Source of the DNA: Squalus acanthias
Taxonomy: Eukaryota
Direction: 5' to 3'
Length of the DNA: 64,000 bases
Assembly: GCA_030390025.1 (NCBI GenBank)
Contig: CM059432.1
Location: forward strand, 46,874,001 to 46,938,000
The notes under the pieces are model-generated. The model did no database searches. It worked only from the letters and a program-made list of their open reading frames with translations, and had not been told where the DNA came from. Shown here piece by piece: positions 23,164-54,260 of the stretch (positions are counted from its first letter, which is position 1; each line of letters starts with the position of its first letter). A program made the translations under genes and the position numbers.

Positions 23164-23206
23164 CTATCTTGAGCAGACCTTCTCCATTTTCGCAGTCCTG
23201 AAGCCA
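23164..23206 (-). CDS. Host gene exon 4 (terminal coding part): (S)GFRTAKMEKVCSR*
   Basis: Acceptor ttttttctccag; phase 2 matches exon 3; lies in unique, non-repeat sequence. Confidence 0.65.
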
Positions 23207-23436
23207 CTGGAGAAAAAAGGGCAGGAGGCTCTATGCAAAGTTAGCAGCAAACCCCCACAGAAAGTTATGATCAGATTCACGGTCCAAGTTTACATTTAGT
23301 GCAGGAATGCAACCATTTATTATTTTCTGTATTTTGAGGATGTCATGCTCAGTACATTAATGTAAATCTTATGTTTGCCCTTACTATTGCTTTCTTACCC
23401 AATTAATAAATTAATTGAGACTATTTCAATGTTCTC

Positions 23437-23810
23437 TTGGCCAGCTTCACTTTTTCCACCCTCCATAAACTTAACCTTCTCCAGTCCTACAACCCTCCGA
23501 GATATCTGCACTCCTCCAATTCTGGCCTCTTACGTATCCCCGATTTTAATCGCTCCACCATTGGCGTCCGTGCCCTCAGCTGCGAAGCCCTAAGCTCTGG
23601 AATTTCCTCCCTAAACCTCTCCGCCTCTCTCCCTCTCTTTCCTCCTTTAAGATGCTCCTTAAAACCTACCTCTTTGACCAAGCTTTTGGTCATCTGCCCT
23701 AACATCATCTTAGGTGGCTCGGTGTCAAATTTTGTTTGATAACATCCCTGTGAAGAGCCTTGAGACGTCTTACTACATTAGGGGCGGTGTATAAATTAAG
23801 CTGTTGTAGC
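23437..23810 (+). mobile_element. L2 LINE 3' fragment
   Basis: PPRYLHSSNSGLLRIP...LKPTSL; tail ctactacattaggggcggtgtataaat. Confidence 0.8.
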
Positions 23811-24915
23811 ACAAATTTAACATGCTACCCTGGGACCATGTGAACACTAGAGTGCAGTGCACACCCATTTGCGGGTGCAATTGAATTTCGAGGCTGATGG
23901 CTTTGGCCTTCCCAATGTTTAACTGGAGGAGATAGTACCTCGTCCAAGACTGGATGGTAGACCAGCAGTCTGACAACACAAAGGAGTGGTCAAGAGAGGT
24001 TCCGCACCCACCATCATCCCGCCTCCACACAACCTTCCTGAGTGTCGGGTCCCCGATTTGCGAATGGACCCGACAACCAGCGGCGGGAAACGGATTAAAG
24101 GCAATTAACTGCCTATTAACAGGTACTTGTGAGCAGTTTTCAGGGTCTTTTTTGATTTTCCAGCTTCTGGGTCAGGTTTTACGATGTCCGGACAACACGC
24201 CAGGTAAGTGTGGCATGTTGTAAGTCTGGTCTGATGTTTGTGAAAAGATGACAGCTGCAGAAGTGGTGTCAAGGATGCCATGTTGCACATGGTGAGTTTC
24301 AGAGCAGAGAAAATGTTGGTTACTGCATTTTTAATGCATAAACAGATATCTTTAGCTTACAAGTTTTTAAATCCAACTGTATGTCCAGTGCCAGCTCATT
24401 GGGAGAACCTCTCTCACCAGTGACAGATCGCTTCTGTCATCTCACCTGCAGCTGCCATCTATTCCAGCAATAATCGGAGCCAATGAAACAATCAGACCTT
24501 GGTCCTCCGAATCCTTCCACAATCATCCCCAACACCAACATCACCAACCTCATCACCAACCTTCGCCGCCATCACCTGATGCTGCACTGGACACAGGGCA
24601 TCAGCCGCTGACAAAATTGCTGGCCAGGAAGCCAGCGATGGCATCACCATGGCCAGACTTTCTTCACTTGATGCTGTAAATCCTGGCTGCCACATGATGC
24701 GCCAGGTTGACACCATCCCACACCAGCACCGTGAAGCATCCCTTTAATGTCCAAGCCATTCATACACACACATCACTATAGCGGGGCGGGGGGGGGGGGG
24801 GGGTGAGTTATGACTGAACAATCACTGGAACTCAGTAAGACACTTCTCAATGTGTGCTCAGATCTGTCCAATAAGGGGCACTTTTGTAAAAAGAGATTTC
24901 ACTGTATGACAACAC

Positions 24916-25661
24916 GGGGCGATTTTGCCAGCCCTGGGGAGGTTGGTATGGAGGTGGGACTGCCACGAAAATGGCAGAATTTGGGGGTGGGTGCCCAACC
25001 CGCCTCCATGCCATCTTGCCAGGAGGCGGGTAGCCGTCCCGCGCCGGGTCCCGTCTCCTTGGAGGCGGGAAAGGATTAAAGTCTATTAACTGCCTGTTAA
25101 CAGGTAGTTAACAGGCAGAAAATAGGATTATCCCCTTTTTGCCCTCACAAGTGCGGGCTTCCCGAAGGCTCCGAAACACGCCAGGTCAGCGAGGCGAGTA
25201 CTGGGTCTGCGGGGGTCGAGGGGGTGCAAAAGTGTGCTGTGAAGGTAAGTGATGGGTGCAAGAGTGGAGAGGTGAGTATCTGAGTGTTAGTAAAAGTGTA
25301 CTTACCTTTGTTTCTTCCTGCAGGCTTCAGTCGGTGGGTATGCGGAGAGTCTCGCACCTCCGCGGCAGAGATGACAGATGGCCGTTGCATTCTCCAATGC
25401 AACAACCATCTCATTTCTGCAAAAGAAAGAGGTTTGATGAGGTCTTGAATTCAAGACCTCATCAATCTACAGAGAATGTCACTGTTTGACAGCTTCACAG
25501 AGCTGTCAAACGATGACAATTCATCTGTCAAAAGTTTTTGATAGATGAAACGTCATACGTTGACGTTCTCTGCAACCGGCTTTCCCTTAATTGGCCTGCT
25601 AAGCCCGCTGGACAAGTGGGAGTCCCGCCTCCAAAAGCTCCCCATTGAGAAAATCACCCCC
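24916..25661. mobile_element. Harbinger-type MITE
   Basis: TIRs ggggcgatttt / aaaatcacccc; probable TSD CAC. Confidence 0.65.
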
Positions 25662-25726
25662 CACATTACCAGAAACTTCACATGGACATTGGCTAAACCT
25701 CTCAAGTGCCCACCCTTGTGTGTTGT

Positions 25727-26205
25727 TAAAATAACAGAAAACGCTGGAAAAACTCAGCAGGCCAGGCAGCATCCGTGGAGAGAGAAACAGAGTTAACGTT
25801 TCAGGTCGAAGACCTTACGTCAGAACTGGAAAAAAGCAGGAAATGAAATAGATTTAAAGCAAGTATAAAGCTGGGAAAAGAGGGAGGGGTTGAAAGAATA
25901 AAAGGGAAGGTCAGTGGCGGGATAGAAAGCAGGAGAGATTAAGAAACGTTGAGAGACATTAAGAGATAATCAAGGCAAGAGGAGGTGTTAATGTGACAGG
26001 TTGAGGCTAGATGAAGTGTGAGATGCGCTGGCAGAATGAAGGACAGCTGCCAGCTTCTGAGAGGGGAAAAAAAGGCCAAACAAAAGGGTGGATGAAAAAA
26101 TAAAATAAAAAAATATAAATGTGATAGGGGCCGAGGTTATGATCTGAAATTGTTGAACTCGATGTTGAGTCCAGAGGGCTGCAGGGTGCCTAAACGAAAG
26201 ATGTG
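25727..26205 (-). mobile_element. Penelope family A 3' region with hammerhead motif
   Basis: Colinear with 5041-5430; minus strand ctgacgtaaggtcttcgacctgaaacgttaac. Confidence 0.8.
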
Positions 26206-26739
26206 CTATTGTACTTGTGTGTTGTTAGTTGGTATGCTTGCAGTAGAATGAGGGTGAGTGTGTGGGGTGGCTAGTGAGATGAGGAACTGATAAAGTAGAT
26301 AGAGAGGGTTGGGTGGAGGTGCAAGGTAAGTTGGTGTCCTGGGGAGGTCTCTTCCGCCCTTGGAAGGGAAGAGAACCTCCCTGCATACTGTGACTCCCTC
26401 CATAAGCATATGGAGGGAGTCATTGGAGAGTCTGGGTGCAAGAGTTCACCTTTGTGCAGTAATTGTCTGTGTTTTCAGCACCTCAATGCAGTCAAATACT
26501 GAAAAATCAACTATCAAAATAAAATTGTGCATGGTCCCTTTAAGGAAACCGGCAGATGACGTGTCATCAAATGACATCATCAGACCCGCTTCCTGTTAAT
26601 TGGCCGGTGGCGGGCTTAACAAGGCCAATCAAGGGAAAATCACATCTGGAGAGCGGAGGCAGCTGGGGGTGGGATTAGAACCCGGAAACCAGCTGACCCG
26701 CACCCATCCAGACACCGATGAGAAAATCGCGGCCAATGT

Positions 26740-27430
26740 CTGTGTATGATGTCGCCAAGCGGCAGCCTGTAGATGAAGAAAAGGAGAGTGCTAAGGATAG
26801 ATCCTTGAGGGACTCTGGAGGTTACATTGTTGGGGGTATGGAAAGAAAAGCCATTGCTGGAGATGTTCTGACGAGTATGAAATACGTAAAAGTGAAACCA
26901 TGCAAGGGCATTCCCTCCAAGCTATACAATAGAGGAGAAGTGCTGGAGAAGATGGTGTGGTTGACCATTTCAAAGGCTGCAGATAGGTCGAGAAGGAAGA
27001 GGAAAGATAATGCACCATAGCCAGTCACAGAGAATGTCATTTGTAACTTTGGCGAGGGCCATTTTGGTGCTGTGGCAGGGGCAGAAGCCTGGTTGGAGAG
27101 ATTCAAACATGGAGCTGCGAGAAAGATGGGCAAGGATATGGGAGGCAATACACATTTGATGACTTTGGAGAGGAAAGAAAGATGGCGGCGATAGTGTGCA
27201 AGGACAGAGGTCAAAGATGGATTTTTTGAGGAGGGCTGATGATAGTAGTTTTTGAAGGGAGTGGGACAGAACATGAGAAGAGGGAATCATGTAGAATGTC
27301 AGCTGGTATGGGGACCAGGAAGGAAAGTTGTGTAGTCAGCAGTTTAGTGCAAATGTCAAGCAAGCAAGTAGGTCCCATGGATGAGCTCAGAGAGGGCATG
27401 AGGGAAGATGGAAAAATAGCTAGAGAGGGG
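26740..27430 (-). mobile_element. Degraded L2 LINE RT fragment
   Basis: SLQPGFCPCHSTKMALAKVTNDIL and LLDLSAAFEMVNH. Confidence 0.8.
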
Positions 27431-27802
27431 CGCACTTTGCATTTCTGATAAACCTAAAATCTGTTTTAGCAAACTACTATTCTCTTTCCAGAGTTCTCTT
27501 CCTCCATTTTCTCCTAAGCTTTGTGAAGTTAACTTTTATTTATTAATTTCATTTTAATCAATGTATTAATTAATTTTGCTGAATGCGTATTTTGCTTACA
27601 ATTTGTTTTCTGATCTTGCTTAAACAACATTACTATTTAAAAGTGTTTTATTTTCCTCAGTTAAAGATATACTTCAGCAATATTTCCCAGTTAATTTGTT
27701 TCAATTCAGCCTTCATTCCTTTGAAGTTTACCTTTTTTTAAATTATATATTTTGTCCTTGTCCTTACTGGTGCTGATTGCAAGACAGTTCTACATTTCTC
27801 AC

Positions 27803-27913
27803 CTCGCTGTTAGCACAGGAATCTTGGGTAACACGGGTTTTGGTTGGATGAATATATTTCGATATAGCTGGAGGAACATATGGTGGGCCTCAGGTGTACT
27901 GTGAGGAATATCC
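27803..27913 (-). CDS. Host gene exon 3: (R)DIPHSTPEAHHMFLQLYRNIFIQPKPVLPKIPVLTA(S)
   Basis: Acceptor tttattttcag, donor AG|gtgaga, 111 bp. Only one frame is open and it fits phase 2 at both ends. Confidence 0.8.
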
Positions 27914-28394
27914 CTGAAAATAAAGTAAATAAAATGCTAGTTTACCTGAAACATTCATTATTTCTACCTGAAACAAATCACACAAGTCTTCATTTTTCAA
28001 TCAGTACGAATTAAAATAAAATAATCCAGGTAAAGTACAATTAATGATTTAGTGTAGAAGATGAGCAGAGAACTGTTAACGTAGTCAAGTACAACAAATT
28101 AATCACCAGCCTTACTTCTACTTAGTTGATTATAAATTTATGAATTCAATAAACATGGCTTCAGATTTTATTCAGGAGATCTACCAAGGAAGGCCAAGGT
28201 TGTACGTTAAAAGAACAATGGTGTTATTGACTAGCTGTCAATCAGGTTTCAGCATCCAAGTCTTTCTTCAAATTTTCCTACTTCTCAGCTAGTCTGCCCT
28301 GTTTCTCCTTTGAAAATGGTAGGCTTTATATGGTCTGGAATAGGAATTTTCAACTCTTAGTCATGTGCTCAGAAATCCACAGAAATAATTTGGC

Positions 28395-28655
28395 AGTGGA
28401 TCAGCGGTTGCACTCTCGTCTCTGAGGCAGAAGGTTGTGGGTTCATAATCCCACTCAAGAGACTTGGGCACAAAATCTAGGCTGACACTGAGGCAGTGCT
28501 GCACAGTCGGAGGTGCCGTCTTTCGGGTGAGACGTTAAAACCATGTTTCTGCCACGTTTCTTACATTACAACAGTGACTAAACTACTTAATTGGCTGTAA
28601 AGTGCTTTGGGACATCCTGAGGTTATGGAAGGTGCTATATAAATGCAAGTTCTTT
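28395..28655 (+). mobile_element. DeuSINE-type SINE with internal deletion
   Basis: tRNA-like head (gggttcataatcccactc), Deu core, L2-like tail. Confidence 0.7.
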
Positions 28656-29595: not shown

Positions 29596-29689
29596 TACAA
29601 ATCTATACAGGAAGCCCTTAAACATTTGGCTCGGTTATAAGAATTTAGGGCTAAATTAGAACATTGAAAGCAGTAACATTACATCACTT

Positions 29690-32800: not shown

Positions 32801-33164
32801 TTGCTAATATCAGGCATAGGAATGTAGCACTAATTGGCCTAAAAATTGGATATGGCCATGAATCAGGCAGTGTTAAGGCCCAACGATGTTAAGATGCACC
32901 ATCTCAAAATGGTCTCGGTAGCATGCAAAATTTGTGCTCAGTCCTCTTTAATTAATGATTATAGTCTTGATTTCAGCACTAAAACTGCTGCTCATTGACG
33001 TAACACTCAACAGGTGGGCCAATATTGGGTCTAGTCTAATTCCCAGTCATGTTTGCCACAGGCTTTATTCAGTACTTAAAGGGAAGGTGCACTGATGCTG
33101 CAGCACCTCATTGTCAAGCCACTCAGAACTGTAGCTGCAAGAAGAAGGTAGTGCAAAAAAAAGG

Positions 33165-35100
33165 GAGGGAGCCTGCAGATTTTCTGACTCGGATCTTGAG
33201 CCACTGGTTGTGGCCGTGGAGAGGAAGCGGGCTGTCCTCTTCCCACACATTGGCAGAAAGCCCTCACCACACACCTCGCGAAGGCTGTGGCAGGAGATGG
33301 CCATCCATGTCATGGTCAGCACTGTGGTGCCAAAATCGACCATCCAGTGCCAAAAGAAGTTTAATGACCTCACATGGCAGGTTAAGGTGAGTGAAGGCTT
33401 CAGCAAATGCCATATCCCACCATCTGCACCACAAGCCTCACACACTACTCAATGCACCACACCCCCAGCACTCACCTACCAACAATCTCTACCTATCACC
33501 ACTCAGACATCACAATCAGACCTTCACTTCACCCTCATAACCTTATCACTGCTGCAACACTCACACCCATATCTCACACCTTGCAAACACTGATAGCTAT
33601 TCAACCATGGCAGGCACATCACCCAAACACATTGCACCACACTCATTCACACACTTCTCTTTCTCTTGCAGGCCAAGGTCGCCCATAACCGGAGAGAGCA
33701 GCGGCAGACAGGTGGGGGGCAGACTGACATCCACGACTATAGCCAGCTGGAGAAGAGAGTGCTAGACATAATTGGGTGGCAGATCAGAGGCCATGACAAC
33801 CGGCGAGGTTGAACCCCTTGGGGACAACAACACTATAGTCATTCCTAATCCTTCTTCTCACATCCCACTTCCCCCTCATCCCACAATGTCTTCTCACTTT
33901 CAATCTGCTGTTGCTGTATGCATGCATATCTTGCTTCCCCCCTCCCCTCACTATAACCCGACTCTTGTGCCTTTCTGCTTTCAGATAATCAACAAGCACC
34001 AGACCAACCTATCCCCGGGGTGATGCACGAAAGCAAAGAGAGAGAAGAAGACACAGCGTCACTGCATCTGTCACTCACAGACGGCAGCTCAAAAACTGCA
34101 CTGCGTGTACTTTCGAGGCTAGTGTAGAAACGGGATCTGCACAAGGTGAGGCATCGGGCATGACTGAGCTGCAGCAAGGCCGGGGGAAAGGGTAGCTTGG
34201 GGGCCAGCTCCCCGGAGGGTGAGTTCTGCTACACAGGACTCGGATGAGGACCTCGAAGGGGCGGCCTTCGGAAGAAGGGTGATGGACTTGCACACCGAAT
34301 TGCTAGGTGCAATGGCAAACCTGCTAGAGAGCCTCATGGCAATGTCAAGGTGCAGAGCATGGAGTCCAGGATTTCCAGCCTGGAAATGATGGAAGACTCC
34401 CGAAGAGACCATGTCGACCCAGATGTTGCGGCTGCCATTGCAGCACAGGCGGAAGCGACCCACCGTCTCAGTGCTGCAGAAGCGCAGAACGCTCTCATGA
34501 AGTCTTGGCTTGATGCCACCCAAGCTCAGACCGCTGTCATGCAGTCTCAGCTTGGTACCATCAAAGCTCAGGCTGCTCTTATGAAGTCTTAGCTTGATGC
34601 CACCCATGCTCAGACCGCTGTCATGCAGTCTCTGCTTAATGCCATGCAAGCTCAGACTGCTGCCATCATGGCTGGGTTTACCACTGTCGACCAGGGCTTG
34701 CAGGGTGTCGCAGCAGCCCAGCAATCTGTGCTCCAACAGATTGCTAGGAATGTTGATGCGCCACCCTGGGGGAGTGGCAGTGGGTCAGTGGAGCAGAACC
34801 CTGCTGTCCTCTCTCAAGATGACAGCATTCCTCTTCCCACCACTGCCACTCTGTCATCGTCCTTGCCGCTGCCGGTCAGCCAGCCAGCCCAGACTGCTGC
34901 CGCCCATGCCGAGGTGGTGAAGTCTGGAGCCGGGCCTTCTAGGGCCAGAGCTGCTCAAGGTCATCCTGCTAGGCCATCTGTAGTCTTCCCCATGGAAACT
35001 CAGCAGCCTTCCACCAACCATGCTGCAGCTACTGGGGGAGCACTTCGTAGGAGCACTGGGACAAGAAAGGGCACCCGAACGACAGGCACTAAGGGTGATT
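33165..35100 (+). pseudogene. Myb/SANT-like gene of the outer Harbinger (exons ~33165-33386, 33672-~33831, 33985-~35100)
   Basis: RFSDSDLEPLV...LWQEMA...QCQKKFNDL|gtgagt; ttgcag|AKVAHNRREQRQTGGG; has stops and frameshifts. Confidence 0.82.
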
Positions 35101-36019
35101 ACTTCATATCATTACTGCAAAAATGTGTGAATTTATTTTTGATACATTTATTAATCTTTTGTGGTGTCTCTCATTTCAGCTTTGTGCCCAAGAGGACACT
35201 GTGATATTCCATGGCAGAGGGATGATATGATGGGGACGTGGTGAGCAATGAGGATCTGTGGTTGCATTCATTGGAATCGGAGTCTGATTCACGGACTGGC
35301 CGTCCGAAAGGGGGATTGGTTGCCTGCCTCCTCCCGCCCTCCTTGTCCTCTTCCTCTTGCTCCTCTTCCTCATCCTCCTCCTGAGGTGGTCCCGCAATCC
35401 CTGATGGCAAGGGCTGCGCCCTCATGATGGCCAAGTTGTAAAGCATGCGGCAGACCACCAGGAAATGGGATACCCACTCCAGCGTGTTTTGGAAAGCTCC
35501 TCCCGAACGGTCAAGGTAGCGGAACCGTTGCTTCAGTAGCCCAATGGTCTGCTCGATGATATTCCTGGTGGCAGCATGGCTCTTATTATATGAGTGATGG
35601 GCACGAGTGTTGGGGTTGCAGAAGGGAGTCATGAGCCAGGTGCAGAGCGGATAGCCCTTACGGGAGAAATTCGGTATCGCCCCGTTTGGGGCGCTATTAT
35701 TGGCCGGGCTCAAAGTTTAGCGCCCGGCGCTAATTATCGCCTCTGACTGCAAACTTGGCCTCTATCGCCTCTGGAGGTGATTTGAGCGCTAAATCAGGTG
35801 CTACACACCTGTCTTAAGGCGCTAACGTCAAGGAGCGAGGCGCTACCTCAGAGCGCTGGCGAAGCTCAGGTGATGTCAGTTAGCAATGGAACACAGACAG
35901 ACTGGCGCCAGCCAGTTCTTAAAGGGGAGGGTTGATGTTGCTGTCCAGCCACACCCTGCTCATTGCAGCCTTGAATCTCGGCCTGGAGAGACCTGTACAT
36001 CAATTGTGCTGGAACCACC

Positions 36020-37861
36020 AATGGATAGGCCCAGGGAAAGAGCTCAGCACTTCAGCGACCGGGCCTTGGTGGCTCTGGTTGGTGCTGTGGAGCGGCGACG
36101 GGCAGTTCTCTACCCACAGAGTGGCAGGAGGCCATTGCCCCCGCGAATACAGAAAACTCTGGAGGGAGGTGGCTCAGCACGTGTCCTCGAGGAGCCTGGT
36201 GCCGAGGACCCACACCCAATGTCGGAAGAAGTTCAACGACCTCACTCGGGTGGTCAGGGTGAGTGGCTGCTTTTCAATACATCTACATCACTCCATCTCA
36301 ACTTCACTCTGTGCCCAGAGGGTTTAAAAACCCCAAATTCCCAACACTCATCCAAGACCTATGGCCATCCCATAAAACACACACGCACATTCCACACCTT
36401 GCATACATTAAGGGCTATTCAACTATGGGAGACACATCAGGCAAGCACATGGCTGCACATTCACTCAGACGTCGTCCTTTTTCTTGCAGCCAAGCTCTCT
36501 CATAACAGGCGGCAGCAGCAACGCACGGGAGGAGGACCAGCTGACCTACACACCCTCAGCGATTTGGAGGCGTGCATGCACAGGATCGTTGCCAGCCAGG
36601 TCATAGGTGTCGTGGCCGCTGGAGAGGTCGACCCCCTTGGGGACAGCAATGGTATGTTCATCAGCTTTCTCTCCTCTCTCATTCCACTTGCCCCTCACAA
36701 CACCAGCCTTTTACACTTTCAATCCAACTTACTAAATGTCTCCAGTCCTTGCTCCCTTACTGTCCCCCTGTCCTGATGCTAAAGCTACTCTTGTACCTCC
36801 CTGCTTTCAGATAGTGAACCACCAGCTGACCAGCCTGTCGCTCAGTGGCAGCGACGCACCAGGCGAGGAGGAAGAGGAAGCCGGAGCCTCACCACCTGAG
36901 TCTCACGAAGGAGCCCATGCCGACACTGGGACCACGCCTTCCCTGGAGGGCAGCAGTGGGGTAGGGTCTGATGAGGGCAAAGCTCCGGGACCCAGCGGGC
37001 TGCAGCAACGTCATGGGGGTAGGGAAGCTCGGGGGCCATCTCCCCCGGAGGGCGAGTAGGCAAGCGAGTCCTGCTGCACTGGACTCAGAGGAGGACCGCG
37101 CCATTGTGGCAATGAATAGCCAAGCCTTGAGCATGTACACTGAGCTCATGGGGGCAATGGCAAGGGTACCCGAAAGCATGGATGGACTGGCTAGGAGTGT
37201 GGAGCAGTCCGCTGCAGCACAGGCCGACGCAACGCAACGGCTTAGTGCTGCAATTCAGTCATTGGCTGGTGCCATCCAGTCTCAGACTGCTCTCACGCAG
37301 TCTCAGATTGATGTCACGCAAGCACTGACTGCTGCCATCCTCGCTGGCTTGGCCACATTGCCCCGGGGCTCTCACGGTGCCGCAGCAGGCCAACGATCTG
37401 TGCTCGAGCAGATTGCTCTGGATGCGGAGGTACTGCCACGTGGGAGTGCCAGTGTGTCGGTCGAGCAGGAAGGTGCTGTCCTCTCTCAGGATGATAGCAT
37501 TCCTGCTCCCACCACTGGCACTTCCCCATTGCACATGCCACCGCCTGCAACGTAGCCAGCCCAGACTGCTGCCACCCATGCAGAGTTGGTGCAGTCTGCA
37601 GCTGGGGCCTCCAGGCCCAGAGCTGGTCGAGAGCGTCCTTCAAGGGCATCTGTAGTCTCTGCATCTGACATTCAGCAGCCTTCCATCAGCCTTGCTGCAG
37701 CCACTGGGGCCCCATTCTGGAGGAGCAATAGGGTGGGAAGGGGGGAAATGCACAGGCGGTGGAGATCACCCTCGAAAAGTGGTAAAGGTCGAGGTTTGTG
37801 TGATTACATTTGTTTTGTGTTTTGCCGTTTATCTCCATCTTGTGAGAACCAGTTCTGTTAG
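36020..37861 (+). pseudogene. Myb/SANT-like gene of the inner Harbinger (exons 36020-36258, 36490-36651, 36811-~37861)
   Basis: MDRPRERAQHFSDRALVALV..LWREVA..QCRKKFNDL|gtgagt; GT-AG introns; AATAAA near 37898; several frameshifts. Confidence 0.85.
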
Positions 37862-38046
37862 TTCATGATTTGTTCTGTTTTTCTAATTGTCTGTCCTGAA
37901 TAAATGACACACAGAGTTTGTTAAAGAAAAAAGTTGTATTCAAAATGTACCTTTGCAATCATTCCAGCTTTGGCTGGCAATAGGGGGTGCAGGTTGCTTT
38001 CCATGATGTTGTTCTCCATGCCAGAAGCCATCTTCTAAGTAGGGGC

Positions 38047-39092
38047 CTAGAAGCGGCTTCTTATCAGCCGTTCACGGACGGCCCTTGCATTGGCAACATT
38101 GTGCGGCTCCCTCCCACATTGGTGCTGCTGCTGATCCTCCTCCTCCTCCTCCTCAGGTGGTACACCAATTCCTGGTGGCATTGGCTGGGTCCTCAGGATT
38201 GCCAGGATGTGAAGCTTGCAGCACACAACTATGAAGAGGGAGACTCGCTCAGGAGAGTACTGCAGGGCTCCTCATGAGTGGTCCAGACAGCGGAACTGTT
38301 GCTTCAGCACACCGATCGTCTGCGCAATTATGTTCCTGGTGGCGATATGGTTCTCATTATACCACAGCTTGGCAGGGGTGTTGGGGTTACGGAGCGGTGT
38401 CATTAGCCAGGTGCAGAGTGGATAACCCTTGTCCCTGAGGAGCCATCTACTTGGGTGATGCGGTACCTGGAAAAGGTATGGCGCAGCATGAAGGCATCGT
38501 GGCTGCTGCCAGGATAGTGGGCATTGACGGCGAGTATGAGTTGTTTGTGGTCACAGACCAACTGCACATTTAAGGAGTGGTAGCCCTTGCGGTTTCGGAA
38601 TACCTCTGCATTTTTATGCGGTGCCCGCAATGCCACATGCGTGCAGTCAATGGCGCCCTGCACCATGGGGAAGCCCACTGTCCTAGCAAAGCCACATGCG
38701 CGTTCATACTGTTTGGCCTGGGTCATGGAAAAAGAGATGTACTGGCGTCTCCTTTTATACAGGGCATTTGTCACCTCCCGGATACAACAATGCACAGCGA
38801 ACTGGGAGATATTGGCGATGTCCCCAGTAGAAGCTTGAAAGGAGCCGCTGGATTAAAAATTCAGAGCCACTGTCACCTTCACTGCCACCGACAAAGACAT
38901 CCTGGTCCTCAGTTGAGGCTGCAGATCTGGTTGCAGCAGGTGGCAGAGCTCAGTGACCACCTCCTTGCTGAAGCGCAGCCTGCACAAACACTGCTCCTCA
39001 GACAAATGAAGGTATGAGAGCTACTCCCTGAATACCCTCAGAGGGTAAGGTCTCCTGTGCAGAGGCCTGTTGGCCCTCCTCCCTCTGGCCAT
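38047..39092 (-). pseudogene. HARBI1-like DDE transposase of the inner Harbinger
   Basis: [50 protein letters not shown]; in-frame stops. Confidence 0.93.
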
Positions 39093-40164
39093 GTTTGCCA
39101 CTCTCTCTCTGCGTCTCTGCTGCCTCCGATTCTGTAGGTGCAGGACGATGCCCCGAATCAGTGCAGCCCCCTAAGTCTCTTCTAAATCACTGCAATGAAG
39201 GTCAAATGAAAATGAACCTGCAAAGTGCTGCTCAGTACCCAAAACTCCTTCACACAGTGTTGAATCTCTCCAGAAGTCTCTCTCCCTCTCAGAATGCGTG
39301 GTACAAAAATGTCAGCGACAAAAAAAGGCAGGAAGCAGCCGCCTTTAAATAGCATTCCCCCAGCCCCTTCCCGACTGCAAAACGTTCCCCTCTACCTGTC
39401 GTTGCTAGGGGCAGGCAGAAAGGCAAGGGGCGCGACTCAATATCCGGTCCGGGGCGCTACACGCTCGACTGACGTCACGATCTGCGGGCGCAGGAGATCG
39501 TGGCGGTAGCGTTTAACGCCGCCGCAAAATGTCTGGTCAATTTTGCAAGCGGCGCAAACATCGCCGCGCACAGGCGCTAGTTGATTTGCGCTCCGTTAGC
39601 ACCCTCTTAGGGCGCTAATGGGAGGCACTAATCAACCGAATTTTTCCCCCCCTTGTCCCAGAGCAGCCACCCTCGAGTTTGCTGTGGTCGCTGGAAGATT
39701 GCTGATGCAGGATGAAGGCATCATGGCTGCTGCAAGGCTAGTGGGCATTGACCGTCAGGAAGTGCTAGGCGTGGTCGCACACCAACTGCACATTAAGTGA
39801 GTGGTAGCCTTTGCAGTTACGGAGAAATTGAGGGCACGGTGAACTTGACTGTCACTGGGAGAGCCGTGTTCACCCTGCTCTCAGGCTGCAGGTCTTGTTG
39901 CAGGGGGTGGCAGAGTTCTGTGTACCTCCTTGATGAAGCGTAGCCTCCTAATAAACTGCTCCTCGCTTAAACGGATATATGAGAAGTGCTCTCAGAAGAC
40001 CCTAGGTGGGTAAGGCCTCCTGTTGAGAGCCCTCCTCCTCCTCCTCCTCCCTCTGTGCGCATCTTCTCCCCTTCTTCGCGGCCTCCGCTCCCTCTCCTGA
40101 AGATAAGCGAGCACCAGTAGAGCCCCCATGACTGTGAGCAAGTGTTGTGAGCAGAAGCACAACA

Positions 40165-41457
40165 AAGTCACCATGGATTTATGAAAGGGAAATCGTGTTT
40201 AACAAACCTACTGGAGTTTTTTGAGGATGTAACTGGTAGAATAAATAAGGGAGAACCAGTGGATGTGATGTATTTGGATTTTCAGAAGGCCTTTGATAAA
40301 GTCCCACATAAGAGGTTAGTGTGCAAAATTAAAGCACATGGAAATTGAGGGTAATATACTGGCATGGATTGAAAATTGGTTAACAGACAGGAAACAGAGA
40401 GTAAAGAATAAATGGGTCTTTTTCAGGGTGGCAGGCGGTGACTAGTGGGGTACCGCAGGGATCAGTGCTTGGGCCCAGCTATTCACAATATATATCAATG
40501 ATTTGGATGAGGGAACCAAATGTAATATTTCCACGTTTGCTGACCACACGAAACTAGGTGGGATTGTGAGTTGTGAGGAGGATGCAAAGAGGCTTCAAGG
40601 TGATTTAGACAAGTTGAGTGAGTGAGCAAATACATGGCAGATGCAGTATAACGTGGATAAATGTGAAGTTATCCACTTCGGTAGGAAAAACAGAAAGGCA
40701 GAGTATTATTTAAATGGTGATAGATTGGGAAATGTTGATGTACAAAGGGACTTGGGTGTCCTTGTACACCAGTCACTGAAAGCAAACCTGCAGGTGCAGC
40801 AAGCAGTTAGGAAGGCAAATGGTATGTTGGCCTTCATTGCAAGAGGATTTGAGTACAGGAGCAAGGATGTCGTACTACAGTTATACAGGGCCTTGGTGAG
40901 ACCACACCTAGAGTACTGTGTGCAGTTTTGGTCTCCTTACCTAAGAAAGGATATACTTGCCATAGAGGGAGTGCAGCGAATGTTCACCAAACTGATTCCT
41001 GGAATGGCAGGACTGTCGTATGAGGAGAGATTGGGTCGACTCGGCCTGTATTCACTAGAGTTTAGAAGAATGAGAGGGGATCTCATTGAAACGTATAAAA
41101 TTCTGACAGGGCTAGACGGACTGGATACAGGGAGGATGTTTCCCCTGGCTGGGGAGGTCTAGAACGAGGGGTCACGGTCTCAGGATAAGGGGTAGGACAT
41201 TTAGGACTGAGATGAGGAGAAATTTCTTCACTCAGAGAGTGGTGAACCTGTGGAATGCTCTACCAGAGAAGGCTGTGGAGGCCAAGTCACTGAATATATT
41301 TAAGAAGGAGATAGATAGATTTCTAGACACAAAAGGCATCAAGGGGTATGGGGATAGAGAAGGAATATGGTATTGATAGAGGATCAGCCATGATCATATT
41401 GAATGGCGGAGCAGGGCCGAATGGCCTACTCCTGCTCCTATTTTTCTATGTTCTATG
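40165..41457 (+). mobile_element. 5'-truncated CR1 LINE
   Basis: HGFMKGKSCLTNLLEFF through the 3' tail ttctatgttctatg. Confidence 0.93.
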
Positions 41458-42204: not shown

Positions 42205-45200
42205 TAGAAACATAGAAAAATAGGAGCAGGAGTCGGCCATTCGGCCCTTCGAGCCTGCTCCGCCATTCAATATGATCATGGCTGATCCTCTATCTCAATA
42301 CCATATTCCCGCTCTCTCCCCAAACCCCTTGATGCCTTTTGTGTCTAGAAATCTATCTATCTCCTTCTTAAATATATTCAGTGACTTGGCCTCCACAGCC
42401 TTCTCTGGTAGAGAATTCCACAGGTTCACCACTCTCTGAGTGAAGAAATTTCTCCTCATCTCAGTCCTAAATGTCCTACCCCTTATCCTGAGACTGTGAC
42501 CCCTCATTCTAGACCTCCCCAGCCAGGGGAAACATCCTCCCTGCATCCAGTCCGTCTAGCCCTGTCAGAATTTTACACGTTTCAATGAGATCCCCTCTCA
42601 TTCTTCTAAACTCTAGTGAATACAGGCCTAGTCGACCCAATCTCTCCTCATACGACAGTCCTGCCATCCCAGGAATCAGTCTGGTGAACCTTCGCTGCAC
42701 TCCCTCTATGGCAAATATATCCTTTCTTGGGTAAGGAGACCAAAACTGCACACAATACTCCAGGTGTGGTCTCACTAAGGCCCTGTATAACTGTAGTAAG
42801 ACATCCTTGCTCCTGTACTCAAATCCTCTTGCAATGAAGGCCAACATACCATTTGCCTTCCTAACTGCTTGCTGCACCTGCATGTTTGCTTTCAGTGACT
42901 GGTGTACAAGGACACCCAGGTCCCTCTGGTCATCACATTTCCCAATCTATGACCATGTAAATAATACTCTGCCTTTCTGTTTTTCCTACCGAAGTGGATA
43001 ACTTCACATTTATCCACGTTATACTGCATCTGCCATGTATTTGCCCACTCACTCAACTTGTTTAAATCGCCTTGAAGCCTCTTTGCATCCTCCTCACAAC
43101 ACACAATCCCACCTAGTTTTGTGTCATCAGCAAACTTGGAAATATTACATTTGGTTCCCTCATCCAAATCATTGATATATATTGTGAATAGCTGGGGCTT
43201 AAGCACTGATCCCTGCGGTAGCCCACTAATTACCATCTGCCACCCCGAAAAAGACCCATTTATTCCTACTCTCTGTTTTCTGTCTGTTAACCAATTTTCA
43301 ATCCATGCCAGTATATTACCCCCAATCCCATGTGCTTTAATTTTGCACACTAACCTCTTATGTGGGACCTTATCAAAGGCCTTCTGAAAATCCAAATACA
43401 CCACATCCACTGGTTCTCCCTTATCTATTCTACCAGTTACATCCTCAAAAAACTCCAGTAGGTTTGTCAAACATGATTTCCCTTTTATAAATCCATGTTG
43501 ACTTTGTCTAATCCCGTTGATATTTTCTAAGTGTCCTGTTATCACATCCTTTATAATAGACTCTAGCATTTTCCCTACTACTGATGTTAGGCTAACCGGT
43601 CTATAGTTCCCTGTTTTCTCTCGCCCTCCTATTTTAAAAAGTGGGGTTACATTTGCCACCCTCCAATCTGCAGGAACTGTTCCATAATCTATAGAATTTT
43701 GGAAGATGACAACCAATGCATCCACTATTTCCATGGCTACCTCTTTTAGTACTCTGGGATGCAGATTATCAGGCCCTGGGGATTTATCGGCTTTCAGTCC
43801 CATTAATTTCTCCAGCACTATTTTTTTACGAATACTAATTTCCTTTGATTCCTCCTCCTCACTAGACCCTTGGTTCCCTAGCATTTCTGGGAAGTTATTT
43901 GTGTCCTCTTAAGTGAAGACAGAACCAAAGTATTTGTTTAATTGCTCTGCCATTTCCTTGTTCCACATTATAAATTCTCCCGTTTCTGACTGTAAGGGAC
44001 CTACATTTGTCTTCACTAATCTTTTTCTTTTTACATACTTATAAATGCAATTTGTTGTTGGAGCTTAAATTGAGTGTCAAAGGGCAAACTAACTCCAAAG
44101 CAAAGAGGCATGACAGCAACTCCAGATTCTCATTCCACCTTACTGCAGTTTTAGATGGGCCTTTGACTCCAGACTCAAAACTACCATGACACTATACTAC
44201 ACTGCCCGTGCAAGATGAAACAGCAGTGTCGATTCAAGGTGAACGTGCGATGCACTAACACTACTGTTAATCCTCAAAGAACAGTTTTGTTGAAATGGGA
44301 ATCAAGGAAAAACTGAATTTCTGCGTAACATAATTGGCAAACAGCAAGTCCTAAATAACAAAGTGACTGTAAGGGACATACATTTGTCTTCACTAATCTT
44401 TTTCTTTTTACATACTTGTAGAAGCTTTTACAATCAGCTTTTATGTTCCTTGCAAGTTTACTCTCATACTCTATTTTTCCCCTCTTAATCAATCTCTTGG
44501 TCCTTTTTTGCTGAACTCTAAACTGCTCCCAATCCTCAGGCTTGCTACTTTTTCTGGCAACTTTATATGACTCCTCTTTGGATCTAATACTATCCTTAAT
44601 TTCTTTTGTTAGCCATGGTTGAGCCGCTTTTCCTTTTGTGTTTTTGCGCCAGCAAGGAATGTATAACTGTTGCAATTCATGCATTCGTTCCTTAAATGTT
44701 AGCCATTGCCTATCCACCGTCATGCCTTTTAATGAAGCTCCCCAATCTATCATAGCCAACTCACTCCTCATACCTTCGTAGTTTCCTTTGTTTAGATTTA
44801 GGACCCTAGTTTCGGATTGGACTTCTTCACTTTCCGTCTTAATGAAGAATTCTATCATGTTATGGTCACTCTTCCCTAAAGGACCCCGCACAACAAGATT
44901 ATTAATTAACCCCTTCTCATTGCACAATACCCAATCTAAGATAGCCTGTTCCCTAGTTGGCTCCTCAACGTACTGGTCTAAAAAACCATCTCGTACACAC
45001 TCCAGGAATTCATCCTCCACAGTATTATTGCTAATTTGGTTTGGCCAGTCTATATGTAGATATAATTCACCCATGATTACTGTAGTACCCTCGTTACATG
45101 CATCTCTAATTTCCTGTTTGATGCCATCCCCTACATTACCACTACTGTTTGGAGGCCTATAGACAACTCCCACCAATGTTTTCTGCCCCTTGGTGCTTCT

Positions 45201-48599: not shown

Positions 48600-48672
48600 C
48601 TGTTCTGTAAACCACTGATGTTGCATAACTTCTGCAAATTATGATAATCAATTCCCAAAAAATACTGCATTC
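48600..48672 (-). CDS. Host gene exon 2: (G)MQYFLGIDYHNLQKLCNISGLQN(R)
   Basis: Acceptor tttttgtttctttcctgctag, donor AG|gtacca, 73 bp; phase 1 in and phase 2 out fit both neighbours. Confidence 0.78.
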
Positions 48673-49340: not shown

Positions 49341-49929
49341 TTTCACTGAATCCTACCTTGCTTCTGGGAGTTAGTAAAGCAATTCATCAGAGATTTCATT
49401 AGTAATCACTAAACATGGGTATAAGGCCTATGAATCCTAGAAAATATTGAACAGTAACACCAATAGCAAATCTGCTTAGAAAACCTTGTCAAAAAAACAA
49501 GAAACCCAGTTCACAAGCAGGAGGTGCATGAGACCCTGGACAGGAGTAGATCAATATTTGGCATTAAAATTAAGCTGCTTTATGCGTATTCCAAAGGATG
49601 AGGGAGGGCTGTGAGCGGGTTGCTTGGCAACTGAACACAATCTCTTAAAAAAAATAGAAGAATGAGATGCGGATGGGTTTTAATGGCCATCGATGAAAAC
49701 ATTGTGTATAAATGCCTAAGTGGGAGAGAAACTACAGGAGGAGCACAGGAACTGAAGAAGCTTAACCAGTGTGGAAGAAAAGTGGCAGAAATATTAGTGC
49801 AGAAAGCTTATAGGGCTAGGAGATCTTGAGGTAGGATATTGAGTCTGGTAATTTTCTTCAATATGTGTGTGTTATTGTATATCCAAATTATAATCTGTAG
49901 AAATATTATAAAAATATTACAATTTTCCT

Positions 49930-51480
49930 TTATATAACATCTTTAATGTAGAAAAACATCTTAATGTGCTTCAAAGAGGAACAAAGCAGTGGCTGCCAAG
50001 CCTTTATGAGGGTCTTGAGATGACCAAATGCTTGGTCAAAGAGATGGGATTTATAGAAGTTTTTAGAGGCAACCACAGAAATAGAGGGGCAGAGTGATAT
50101 TGGGGAGGAATGCCAGAGAGTACGGCTATACCACCAATGTGGTGGAGCAGAGCGAGGGGAATGCACATCCCAGAGTTAAGGAATCAGAGACCATGGAAGG
50201 CAACATATTGGACTCTAGGGGAATCGAGGGATATGGGGATCGGGCGGGAAAGTGGAGTTGCAGTCGAAGATCAGCCATGATCTTATTGAATAGTGGAGCA
50301 GGCTCGAAGGGCCGTATGGCCTACTCCTGCTCCTAATTCTTATGTTGCAGTTAGGGTAGGGTGATGATGGAGGAATCTGTAGTTAAGCATGAGGATTTTA
50401 AATTTCATACATCAGTGGACAGAAAGATATTCTACGTAGGCAAGGACAGATGTGATGAGAAATCAGGACTTAGTATGGGTGGGTGAGTTTTGAGCAAGTT
50501 GGAGTTTGTAGGTCAGACGTCTGCCATTCAGGCTGCTAGAGAAATTGAGTCTAGAGGTAATGAAAATGTGGATAACTGTTTTGGCAGGTGAGGTATGGAT
50601 GGAGGCAGGAAATGCTGTGAAGGTTTAAGTAAACAGTCTTGGCAATGGATAGGATGTTGTTTTAGAAGTTCATCTCTGTGTCAAGCAGGATGCTGAGTTT
50701 GAAAACAATCATCCATAACAAGCAATGGAGAGGGGGACAGATTCAGTGGCAAGGAAACTGAGTTTTTGCTGGGATCCAGAAATGACGTGTATCACCTTCC
50801 ACCTGGAGATTCTCATTCATTTGCAAGTTAATGTCACACAGGCAGTTTGACAACACAGAATGATGGAATTGTTGGAAAGATAAAAGCTGGGTGAAATCAG
50901 TATACATTTGGAAGCTAATTTGTTCCAAGAGACAATGTCACCAAAGCAAAGCACATACATCAGAAGGAGGAGTGGCCAAGGATAAATCCTTGGGGTTTTC
51001 CAGAAGCCATCATGTGGGTGCGTGAAAAGAAGTCATTGTTGGAGATGTGCTAAATGCATTGGGATAGAAGTGGAACCAGGAAAGGGTAGTCCCATGGAGC
51101 TGGCCCATGGAGGAGAGGCAGTGGAGGAGGGCAACAGCGAGTTTGAGAAGGACATGGAGTTGCAATCAGAGAGGATATCATTCATGACTTTGACTAGAGA
51201 AGACTCAGCAGTGATCAAGGAAAAAGGTAGACTGAAGGGATACGAAGAGAGTTGTGGGAAATTTGGGCATGGACCTGGAAGGCAATGATGCGTTCAAGAA
51301 CTTGGATAAAAAGGGACGTTAGATAAGGGGGGGTAGTTAGACAGGTAAGGGTGGGGTTTTGGCAGAGGGGCTAGGGTGGTAAAAATTATGATGGTGGCAG
51401 TGGAACAGGGTTTGAGGAGACAGTTTGTCATGGAGAAAAAAGTCATGGGTTCTCCTAGATGATCCTGGAGTAGTAGAAAA
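49930..51480 (-). mobile_element. Highly degraded L2 LINE, with a small CR1 3' UTR piece (+) at about 50207-50347
   Basis: KSHLFDQAF and AESSLVKVMNDIL remnants. Confidence 0.65.
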
Positions 51481-51699
51481 TACAATGTTCATCCTACCAA
51501 AAAGATCTTTGCCATCCAAAATGATATTTTTCACTTGGCAGTTCAATATTAAAGTTACAACATTCCAATAATATGATCAAAAGAATGAATCCCCAGGAAA
51601 CCATATTACTATAAATATATTTACTGGAATGTGAAAGCCTCATTGAGTAATTTGGCACGATTAAAAACAATTTTCAGAGGAGACAGTTCCAGGAACCAA

Positions 51700-52415
51700 A
51701 GCTTCCCAAAAACACAATGGGTCATTATTAATGTGAAATCAGTCGGCAAGTTCGGGTGATTAACAGATACACCATGAGTTGCGAATCTCCAGAACCTGCT
51801 GGTCAATTTACGCTACTCCACCGTTTGCTTTGCACAAATGGCATCTCGCCCTTAGCCTCCCCGTTATTTTTAAGAACCTACTGGATTTGCACATTAATTG
51901 TCCATTGAACTCACCATAGAAAGTTAGGGCTGGAACTTAACAGCACAAGCACCTTTTTAACAATGTGATAATTGTTAATGCAATACCAATCAACCTCTCT
52001 GGCACAGAAAGGGAACAATTTAAACTGTTCAATCTCATTTCTGCATGTCGCAAATTGTTGTTAGAAATTTTTTAAATGTCAAATTTTAATCTTTTACATT
52101 TTTTCTTACTTTTCCTTTCTGTCTCTTTTTCTTTCCCTCTCTTTCTGTACCTGATTTATCTCAAATTCACCCACTCTAATTCATCCTCCTTCTCTGTCAT
52201 TCCTCTGTTTCTTTCTCAATCCTTAAATCTCATTGGTTAAATTGATACACTGTTGGTCATATCGTTCACCAAGGTCCCAGATGCCCCGTTGCCCTTGCCA
52301 CGCCATTATAAGCTCGCACTTCCAGCAAGTTACTGCGCAAAAAAAATTTGAGCTGAAGGGTGCAGGAAAAAGTCTAACTAACGGCGTACGCTGCAAGATG
52401 CCCGGCTCCAGCGAG
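51700..52415. mobile_element. Second, reverse-oriented copy of the MITE split at 4586-19229
   Basis: Reverse-complement similarity, e.g. tcaatccttaaatctcattggttaa versus ttaaccaatgagatttaaggattga at about 4770-4793. Confidence 0.75.
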
Positions 52416-52419
52416 ATGA

Positions 52420-52685
52420 GGGAGTGCTGTACTGTCTGAGTTGCTGCCTTTTGGATGAGATGCTAATATGAGGCCCCATCTGCCTTCTCAGGTGGACATA
52501 AAAGATCCTCTGGCACTACCAACATCACTAAACAAAAACAGATTATGTGGTCATTTATCTCATCGCTGTGCACAAACTGGCTGCTGCATTTCCCTACATT
52601 ACAACAGTGACTATACCTCAATATCACATCATTGTAAAGTATTTGGGAGCATGTGAAAGGTGCTATATGATTGCAAGTTATTTCT
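52420..52685 (+). mobile_element. DeuSINE-type SINE fragment
   Basis: Deu core plus L2-like tail. Confidence 0.7.
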
Positions 52686-53489
52686 TCCTTCATCATAGAA
52701 TTAGCCAACCGTAGGACTTTTTAAATGTAGCAATAACATTTAAAAGGCAGTTGCTATAATCAAATCATAACTCTGGGGCCTGATTCAGTTTTTAATTAAC
52801 TTCAACAGTTGACACACTGTAACGTTAAAGGTGTGCTCACATATGTATAGCAGTTACTTATTTCTAAATGTGAAATTTACAACACATCTGGAAGCTCGGG
52901 TGCAGAGCTTGTATTATGGTTTAACAGTTGAATTTTAATAAGATAAAGTCAATGGTGATCATAAAGAAAAAGAACCTCTCAAATATTGACTTTAAAATTG
53001 AGCACTGAGGAATTCGATAAAAATATTGTACTTGGGTAATAACATCAGACGGCTGGACTAATGAAGAGATTAAATGGGTGATAGTAATTGCAAAAGAGGT
53101 GTTTCTTAAAAAAATGAATAGTAAGCAAAATGTTTACATGCTACTTGTAGTCAAAAGCAGCGTCCAAATGCGACAATTGGACTGGGAGTTTGAGTTTAGT
53201 GATATAACAGATGCAAAATCTTAGTTGAAGGTGATGACTAATTAGATGGCCTTTTGAATTAGCGCAAGGAGGGAAGGTGGATTAACCTGATGAGAATAAT
53301 TACATATCATAGAATCATACAGCACAGAAGGAGGCCAATTGGCCCATCACGCCTGTGCTGGCTTTTTGAAAGAGCTATCCAAATTAGTTCCATTCCTCTC
53401 ATCTTTTCCCATAGCACTGCAATTTTTCCCCTTCAAGTACACTGTGGTCATATTATTCAGAGGTCACCAGAAAAATCATCACTTTCTGG

Positions 53490-53860
53490 AGTTGTCACTT
53501 GAGCACAAAAATCTACGCTAACACTCCAGTGCAGTACTGAGGGAGTGCTTCACTGTCAGAGGTGCCGTCTTTCAGATGAGATGTTAAACCGAGGCCCTGT
53601 CTGCTCCCTCAGGTGGACTTAAAAGATCCCATGCCACTATTTCAAAGAAGAGCTGAAGGATTTATCCCTCAATCAACATCACTAAAAACAGATTATCTGG
53701 TCATTATCACATTGCTGTTTGTGGGAGCTTGCTGTGCGCATATTGGCTGCCACGTTTCCCACATTACAATTGTGACTACACTTCAAAAAGTCCTTGGTTG
53801 GCTGTAAAGCGCTATGGGACGTCCTGAGGTCGTGAAAGGTGCTATATGAATGCAAGTCTT
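53490..53860 (+). mobile_element. DeuSINE-type SINE
   Basis: cagtgcagtactgagggagtg...ggtgccgtctttcagatgagatgttaaaccgaggcc; tail gtgctatatgaatgcaagt. Confidence 0.8.
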
Positions 53861-53899
53861 TCCAATTTGTTTTGAAAAGTTGATCCTAACAGAGTAGGA

Positions 53900-54260
53900 G
53901 GAAGGCGAACAGCAGAGCCGCAGGACACTGACAGCACCTGGTTCGGGTGAGAGAGCCGGGAGTGTTCGGCTGCCCCCGGATAAACATTATCTCCACCTCT
54001 GACTGACCCATTACTGATTGCAGCCATTCATATTCTTGCTCTTACCCTGAGTCAGACGCGGCCGGCTCTCGTTACTCGCTGCCGGTGCGCCAACCGACAT
54101 TTTGCTTCCCTACGAGCTTCAGCCGGCCACAGCTGCGGTCGCCAGGCTCGGCGTCTGTCTCCATGGGAACCACACTCTGCCGGGGCACGTGACGCGTCCA
54201 ATTCTGGCTTCTGTGTGTAACAGGGCGGGAGAACGGGCATGCGTGCCAGCCTATGCGTGA
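53900..54260. promoter_or_regulatory. CpG-island promoter with RFX X-box (54157-54170), E-box CACGTGAC (54186-54193), CCAAT (54198-54202) and an NRF1-like GCATGCG
   Basis: The only non-repeat CpG-dense segment I found. GTCTCCATGGGAAC fits the palindromic RFX site and lies about 57 bp upstream of the ATG. Confidence 0.75.
54046..54100 (-). CDS. Host gene exon 1 coding part: MSVGAPAASNESRPRLTQ(G)
   Basis: ATG with A at -3 (gcaaaATG), strong donor AGG|gtaaga, phase 1 matching exon 2; lies inside the CpG island. Confidence 0.72.

What the first reader, a model, noticed from the sequence alone, without database searches (positions are those of the whole stretch)
23164..54260. Hidden 4-exon gene for an unrecognised 93-aa microprotein, spread over 31 kb of transposons
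Seen: four short minus-strand segments in unique DNA (54046-54100, 48600-48672, 27803-27913, 23164-23206) have canonical GT-AG sites and matching phases (1, 2, 2). They join into a 282-nt stop-free CDS: MSVGAPAASNESRPRLTQGMQYFLGIDYHNLQKLCNISGLQNRDIPHSTPEAHHMFLQLYRNIFIQPKPVLPKIPVLTASGFRTAKMEKVCSR*. The spliced ORF is absent from the ORF track, and I cannot assign the protein to a family. Inference: a real, possibly unannotated small protein, probably ciliary or sperm-related given the X-box.
Basis: partly seen in the sequence, partly recalled or inferred. Interest (0 to 1): 0.8.

Follow-up and report, generated by a model that had tools for sequence, protein, structure and literature searches.

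The report
Shark CNBD1 gene, first exons

Summary
The four segments, their splice dinucleotides and the 93-codon join are in the sequence, but they do not make a new microprotein gene. Segments 1-3 are coding exons 1-3 of CNBD1. Exon 3 alone finds only shark and ray CNBD1 (4 of 4 hits, 76-86%). Nine more exons lie left of the window. The 13 exons join through 12 GT-AG introns into a stop-free 475-aa frame, 85.6% identical to sawshark CNBD1. The gene lies between metalloprotease, CNG-beta and copine exons, the order reported for dog. A minor truncated isoform is not excluded (about 10%). His X-box is real, and human CNBD1 is reported testis-specific. The family lacks the arginine that binds cAMP (0 of 119), so it likely works as a nucleotide-blind scaffold. 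Ordinary; low interest.

The parts
54157..54170 (-). X-box-like (RFX-type) promoter motif GTTCCCATGGAGAC, 57 nt before the start codon; RFX binding inferred
   Evidence: 1 match, 0.01 expected; pattern post hoc, consensus recalled; its ATG-GAG-AC reads 'MET', the first residues of 4 of 9 shark and ray CNBD1 records
53901..54300 (.). CpG-rich patch around exon 1 (CpG observed/expected 0.88-0.97, GC 0.55-0.61; whole window 0.41 and 0.45)
   Evidence: 26 other 300-bp windows elsewhere pass the same cut-off, so not diagnostic alone
54072..54164 (-). Out-of-frame 30-codon ORF from the ATG inside the X-box, overlapping exon 1; would be a uORF only if transcription starts upstream of it
   Evidence: 64 nt from the main ATG, so out of frame
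54046..54100 (-). CNBD1 coding exon 1 (start codon to phase-1 donor)
   Evidence: 13 of 18 residues identical to P0009
48600..48672 (-). CNBD1 coding exon 2
   Evidence: E 6e-10; 23 of 25 identical to P0009
27803..27913 (-). CNBD1 coding exon 3
   Evidence: E 1e-14; 32 of 37 identical to P0009; one match in the genome
23164..23206 (-).
21862..22008 (-).

Best explanation
The segments at 54100-54046, 48672-48600 and 27913-27803 are coding exons 1-3 of the CNBD1 gene of a cartilaginous fish, predicted to splice on to the exon at 22008-21862 and nine more exons outside the window to give a 475-aa protein, and the segment at 23206-23164 is likely intron. Shown: the exon chain, its open frame, its homology and its gene neighbours. 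Inferred mechanism: an RFX factor bound to the X-box likely switches the gene on in late spermatocytes, perhaps also other ciliated cells. Both pockets lack the arginine that holds the cAMP phosphate, so the protein likely does not sense cAMP or cGMP in the usual way and more likely serves as a scaffold or adaptor while the sperm tail is built. Confidence: gene identity about 0.97; segment 4 not a main exon about 0.9; the scaffold mechanism about 0.5.
For: Exon 3 search: 4 of 4 candidates are named CNBD1, E 4e-11 to 1e-8. P0004 against the own genome: 10 of 11 matches lie in order on C8, minus strand, 46.92 to 46.75 Mb; the eleventh (E 0.95) is 8 Mb away. The last exon was found at 90% identity. 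13 exons, 12 of 12 introns GT-AG, 475 aa, no internal stop, 405 of 473 aligned residues identical to P0009, AATAAA 342 nt after the stop. P0009 finds 123 proteins at E <= 0.001 among 7,665 candidates, from sharks to mammals; of the 120 listed I count 110 named CNBD1, 10 unnamed or unnumbered, none CNBD2. Neighbours: metalloprotease exons at 46.45-46.49 Mb (+), a CNG-beta exon at 47.13 Mb (+; best PDB hit CNGB3, E 7e-17, CNGB1 close behind), copine exons at 47.27-47.42 Mb (-); dog order CPNE3, CNGB3, CNBD1, MMP16 (PMC3639114, passages). Segment 4: best local score 27 over 125 homologues against 41 for the first 13 residues of the true exon 4; 18 acceptors with at least 12 of 15 pyrimidines in intron 3, each followed by an in-frame stop within 4-47 codons; no AATAAA before exon 4. 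No protein of 30-260 aa matched the N-terminal 90 residues (0 of 2 candidates). Pocket: PF00027 in P0009 (E 3e-12); profile alignment to EPAC2 sets P-F-T-C against P-R-H-A; Arg in 0 of 119 homologues with the motif (F 100, S 16, V 2, L 1); pocket A has the Glu in 1 of 38 rows and no fixed Arg. Changing this Arg abolishes the cAMP response of CRIS (PMC3854790, passage). Expression in man: testis-specific list (PMC7436996, passage); marker of a late spermatocyte cluster (PMC13572877, passage).
Against: The splice chain rests on homology and splice signals; no junction of this organism was seen. It lies in unique DNA, and acceptor and stop are kept in three close relatives. In exon 4 the advantage over segment 4 in the first 13 residues fades in distant homologues (for example 3 of 13 each in P0019, 1 against 3 in P0033), since this region varies. 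This genome has Leu where 119 of 119 homologues have Pro before the pocket-B position, which could mean relaxed selection or a base error. The 119 include isoforms and near-duplicates and are not independent. The structure model is of the sawshark protein and is moderate (mean pLDDT 68.6, pTM 0.44), and fold matches have low TM-scores (0.18-0.25). Loss of the arginine does not prove loss of binding. One paper notes CNBD1 in an aged Sertoli-cell state and another ties it to plasma triglycerides, so the role may not be limited to germ cells. Dogs lacking exons 1-4 show no noted extra phenotype.
Confidence: 0.88

Rival explanations
1. Both forms are made: full-length CNBD1 is the main product, and segment 23206-23164 is a real minor alternative last exon with intronic polyadenylation, giving a 93-aa isoform that keeps the N-terminal module and lacks both nucleotide-binding folds.
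For: Strong acceptor (14 of 15 pyrimidines) and variant poly(A) hexamers AGTAAA at 23129 and TATAAA at 22981 and 22944. Unique DNA. AG and TAG intact in three related organisms, with one variable site in the 43 nt.
Against: One variable site in 43 nt is what the flanks predict (26 sites in 441 nt after dropping 2 rows from a poorly matching contig piece; P = 0.27), and that site changes Arg to Ser. No such tail in 125 homologues, among them 9 isoform records of three cartilaginous fishes. No short homologue (one search also covered 75-2000 aa). No AATAAA. The region is predicted largely disordered (pLDDT under 50 at 1-26 and 64-97).
Confidence: 0.09
2. One reading: a separate four-exon gene for a new 93-aa protein that ends at 23164.
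For: The join is formally valid.
Against: 80 of its 93 residues are the CNBD1 N-terminus (68 of 80 identical to P0009); an in-frame homologous exon follows 1.2 kb on, and the rest of an intact gene follows that.
Confidence: 0.01
3. Same gene, other mechanism: CNBD1 does bind a cyclic nucleotide or another purine ligand through an unusual pocket B and acts as a sensor, as CRIS does in spermatids.
For: Pocket B keeps Gly-Glu (G361 and E362 invariant in 38 of 38), the motif that contacts the ribose in CRIS. Fold matches include trypanosome PKA regulatory subunits titled cAMP-independent and bound to guanosine or inosine, so such folds can change ligand.
Against: Phosphate-binding Arg absent in 119 of 119; a bulky Phe takes its place in 100.
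Confidence: 0.3

Closest known systems
[quoted passage not shown]
   Same: 475 aa here and in P0009; 85.6%, 74.3% and 63.5% identity; 39.8% to gibbon and 41.6% to rat; same neighbours as the dog gene.
   Different: Leu for the Pro found in 119 of 119 homologues before pocket B; the X-box ATG is out of frame here but in frame in four relatives' records.
CRIS (cAMP-binding protein of spermatocytes and round spermatids; PMC3854790; that it is CNBD2 is recalled)
   Same: Soluble protein with the cyclic-nucleotide-binding fold and the Phe-Gly-Glu motif, expressed in sperm precursors; a model for what CNBD1 may work like.
   Different: CRIS has the pocket arginine (R288) and needs it to respond to cAMP; CNBD1 lacks it. 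No CNBD2-named protein was among the 120 listed hits.
Tandem CNB domains of PKA regulatory subunits, PKG and EPAC2
   Same: Best sequence matches in the PDB (EPAC2 E 5e-19 with the profile) and best fold matches (E about 1e-15).
   Different: 13-19% identity; no kinase or exchange-factor domain; pocket arginine missing.

Membership tests
CNBD1 orthologues | Full-length similarity to named CNBD1 proteins, better than to any other family | tested here: met
   85.6% to P0009 over 473 residues; P0009's hits are CNBD1 from fish to mammals; no reciprocal search was run with this genome's joined protein
CNBD1 orthologues | Gene order copine, CNGB3, CNBD1, MMP16 | tested here: met
   Family-level hits in this order on C8 (dog order). 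The copine and metalloprotease paralogues were not named; the CNG exon is closest to CNGB3 by a small margin
CNBD1 orthologues | Intact frame with cyclic-nucleotide-binding domain(s) | tested here: met
   13 exons, 475 aa, no stop; PF00027 at 299-394 of P0009, a stretch aligned without gaps to this gene
CNBD1 orthologues | Testis-biased expression | not testable with these tools
   No run of known RNA type and tissue for this organism was offered; human data only from papers
Canonical cAMP/cGMP receptors (PKA-R, PKG, EPAC, CNG, CRIS) | Gly-Glu in the phosphate-binding cassette | tested here: met
   Pocket B only: invariant in 38 of 38; pocket A has the Glu in 1 of 38
Canonical cAMP/cGMP receptors (PKA-R, PKG, EPAC, CNG, CRIS) | Arg that binds the cyclic phosphate | tested here: not met
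   0 of 119; register from the EPAC2 alignment
Canonical cAMP/cGMP receptors (PKA-R, PKG, EPAC, CNG, CRIS) | Measured cyclic nucleotide binding | not testable with these tools
   Needs a binding assay
Stand-alone microprotein gene (under 100 aa) | Frame not part of a longer gene | tested here: not met
   Exons 1-3 continue in frame into a 475-aa gene
Stand-alone microprotein gene (under 100 aa) | Last exon under coding constraint, with a poly(A) signal | tested here: inconclusive
   Relatives too close to tell (P = 0.27), only variant hexamers
RFX (X-box) target genes | X-box near the start, kept across species | tested here: inconclusive
   Motif present; conservation seen only indirectly through 'MET' starts in 4 of 9 protein records; no promoter DNA of relatives was read; consensus recalled

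The most novel reading that the evidence does not exclude
Shark CNBD1 makes a second, 93-aa product through an alternative last exon in intron 3; it keeps the vertebrate-conserved N-terminal module, drops both nucleotide-binding folds, and competes with the full-length, cAMP-blind scaffold during sperm-tail assembly under RFX control.
Probability: 0.06. Interest if true: 0.35.

Novelty: already known. Interest (0 to 1): 0.1.

Why it matters
As found, it matters little: it is the expected orthologue of a named vertebrate gene at its expected place. Two side points have modest value for anyone studying CNBD1, for which my five searches showed no functional study. First, the whole family lacks the cAMP-binding arginine, so its name likely misleads, and this is easy to test. 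Second, an X-box sits just upstream of the start codon, and its ATG likely leads gene predictors to give several shark and ray records a spurious 'MET...' extension. For the scan itself it is a caution: a window edge plus a good-looking acceptor turned the front of a 190-kb gene into a false microprotein.

Tried and rejected
RNA evidence: no RNA holder listed on record for window 21800-23300 (17 of 23 rows were only guessed to be RNA, at shares of 0.05-0.13). Four of them laid on 21750-28000 were swamped by repeat contigs; only 15 of 717 joints were shown, none of them an exon junction. X5 laid nothing on 23000-23440. None of this bears on expression or splicing. Intron 2 (20.7 kb) exceeds what can be laid in one call. 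dN/dS was not computed: no orthologous coding DNA was on hand. Pfam found nothing in exons 2 and 3 alone, as expected for an N-terminal piece outside the domain. The Atlas gave no usable hit for residues 15-85 of P0009; the whole protein hit the CNBD1 cluster at 0.96, which may be its own cluster. No chain named CNBD1 appeared among the 27 and 25 PDB hits. My first exon chain had two boundary slips (end of exon 5, start of exon 10) and broke at 245 aa; corrected, which read through the exon 12 donor to 444 aa; exon 13 was added. A pseudogene reading was rejected: the frame is intact. No tRNA genes in the window. Earlier scan notes: nothing returned. No complex was predicted, since no partner is claimed. 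No supplements were read; expression or RFX target tables there could bear on the tissue and promoter claims.
Full report
Observation. Donors are GT, acceptors AG, phases 1, 2 and 2, and the join is a 93-codon open frame. They lie in unique DNA within a window of which 43% matches itself elsewhere. The repeats include LINE reverse-transcriptase and endonuclease frames and PIF/Harbinger-like remains. An X-box-like motif lies at 54170-54157 (1 match, 0.01 expected; I wrote the pattern after seeing the site, and the consensus is recalled).

Identity. Exon 3 with six flanking codons (42 aa) was searched against proteins of 75-2000 aa. All 4 candidates are named CNBD1, from Pristiophorus, Heterodontus and Rhinoraja, at 76-86% identity. 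Laid back on the window, these proteins match exons 1, 2 and 3 and a further stretch near 22010-21861 (E 1e-15), but not 23206-23164. That stretch is a clean exon, 22008-21862, 147 nt, phase 2 at both ends, with AG and GTAAGT. In the own genome, where the window is C8:46874001-46938000, P0004 gives 11 matches: 10 in order on the minus strand from 46.92 down to 46.75 Mb and one weak match elsewhere (E 0.95). The C-terminal 40 residues of P0009 find the last exon at 46738689 (90%).

Gene model. Exons 5-13 on C8, minus strand: 46847845-46847700, 46844692-46844574, 46804744-46804607, 46804480-46804348, 46779443-46779334, 46767843-46767693, 46767462-46767395, 46748626-46748567 and 46738689-46738573 (stop). 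All 12 introns are GT-AG. The frame is 475 aa without a stop, 405 of 473 aligned residues identical to Pristiophorus CNBD1 X1 (85.6%), 74.3% to Heterodontus, 49.7% to sturgeon, 41.6% to rat. AATAAA follows 342 nt after the stop. The organism is therefore inferred to be a cartilaginous fish, most likely a shark. P0009 finds 123 relatives among 7,665 candidates; of the 120 listed I count 110 named CNBD1 and none named CNBD2. Neighbours agree: metalloprotease exons at 46.45-46.49 Mb (+), a CNG-beta exon at 47.13 Mb (+), best hit CNGB3, and copine exons at 47.27-47.42 Mb (-). The dog locus runs CPNE3, CNGB3, CNBD1, MMP16 (PMC3639114, 7 passages seen). This chain rests on homology and splice signals; I saw no junction reads.

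Against it: its 13 residues score at best 27 against 125 fetched CNBD1 proteins, while the first 13 residues of the true exon 4 score 41. With P0009 the identities are 3 of 13 and 9 of 13; in distant homologues the gap fades, as this region varies. The 5,794-nt intron holds 18 acceptors with at least 12 of 15 pyrimidines, and each meets an in-frame stop within 4-47 codons, so a phase-matched last exon is easy to find by chance. No AATAAA lies between its stop and exon 4. No protein of 30-260 aa matched the first 90 residues of P0009 (0 of 2 candidates). For it: the acceptor has 14 of 15 pyrimidines, above the 11 true acceptors scored (10-13); variant hexamers follow (AGTAAA 23129, TATAAA 22981 and 22944); and contigs of three related organisms from two studies keep the AG and the stop. 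That last point has little power. There is one variable site in the 43 nt (Arg to Ser) against 26 in 441 nt, after I dropped 2 rows from a poorly matching contig piece; P = 0.27. I put a real minor isoform at about 10%.

Promoter. The ATG inside the X-box lies 64 nt before the main ATG, out of frame, and opens 30 codons that stop within exon 1. Four of 9 shark and ray records with a full N-terminus begin 'MET', 10-20 residues before the methionine that aligns with this gene's start; the other five do not. Inference: the X-box is kept as DNA across these fishes, and predictors extend the frame to its ATG when it falls in frame. I did not read the relatives' promoters.

How the protein likely works. 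A model of the sawshark orthologue (38-sequence alignment; mean pLDDT 68.6, pTM 0.44) shows a low-confidence N-terminus with short helices at 28-64, a helical lead-in, two beta-barrel domains and a long C-terminal helix. Its best fold matches are the tandem domains of PKA regulatory subunits and PKG (E about 1e-15, TM-scores only 0.18-0.25), and the best profile match is EPAC2. Pocket B keeps Gly-Glu (38 of 38) but has Phe, Ser, Val or Leu at the phosphate-binding Arg in all 119 of the 125 homologues that show the motif (isoforms included). Pocket A has the Glu in 1 of 38 rows and no fixed Arg. In CRIS the same Arg contacts the cAMP phosphate, and its mutation abolishes the response (PMC3854790, passages and start of abstract seen). 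Human CNBD1 is listed as testis-specific with no mouse model at that date (PMC7436996, one passage) and marks a late spermatocyte cluster (PMC13572877, one passage). It also marks an aged Sertoli-cell state in a primate (PMC10691849, one passage) and has a SNP association with triglycerides (PMC5773596, one passage). I commit to an RFX-driven, cAMP-blind scaffold of sperm precursors at about even odds; an unusual ligand in pocket B is the main rival. All of this paragraph's function is inferred.

Novelty. The gene is the known CNBD1, already named in NCBI or UniRef records of several cartilaginous fishes. Whether this particular genome's annotation holds it I could not check. My searches showed no functional study of CNBD1 (listings only, 30 of 89 papers listed; subscription papers and supplements not seen). 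Verdict: real gene, wrong last exon, not new; interest 0.1.

Noticed in passing
window 33135-39017 (inside CNBD1 intron 2): PIF/Harbinger-like DNA transposon remains: Myb/SANT-like frames at 33135-33590 and 35923-36324 (+) and DDE_Tnp_4 pieces at 35174-35716 and 38406-38852 (-). Two copies 67-76% alike lie side by side; their places suggest one within or beside the other.
   Followed up: partly
window 40162-41452 and 42209-43507: Two 1.3-kb LINE pieces, 94.8% alike, in inverted orientation 750 nt apart; could pair as double-stranded RNA in the CNBD1 pre-mRNA.
   Followed up: no
G000:C8:47.27-47.42 Mb (-): Three sets of copine exons in tandem (at about 47.27, 47.35 and 47.41 Mb) where the dog paper names one CPNE3; likely a local triplication.
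   Followed up: no
L003, exon 10 (G000:C8:46767843-46767693): Leu replaces a Pro found in 119 of 119 homologues just before the pocket-B position; a species change, a polymorphism or a base error.
   Followed up: partly
window 54164-54072 (-): The ATG inside the X-box opens an out-of-frame 30-codon ORF here; its first 7 residues equal the annotated start of Heterodontus CNBD1, so that record's N-terminal extension is likely promoter DNA.
   Followed up: partly
window 54194-54188 (-): A GTCACGTG E-box-like motif about 20 nt upstream of the X-box (motif class recalled, position approximate).
   Followed up: no
L011 (G000:C8:46748628-46748569): The tail of Pristiophorus isoform X2 (P0004, residues 442-461) matches exon 12 in another reading frame (95%), so that record's C-terminus is a frameshifted isoform or a prediction error.
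   Followed up: partly
window 13868-14977 (+): A 369-aa stop-to-stop frame with coiled-coil-like repeats and only weak Pfam scores, lying beside and opposite a LINE; it resembles the low-complexity tails of the Harbinger-like frames by eye.
   Followed up: no
window 2312-4507 (-): A 731-aa open LINE reverse-transcriptase frame (PF00078, E 2.5e-35) in CNBD1 intron 4, the longest open frame in the window.
   Followed up: no
G000:C7:75.5-76.7 Mb: A cluster of about ten matrix-metalloprotease exon sets in both orientations, unrelated to this finding.
   Followed up: no
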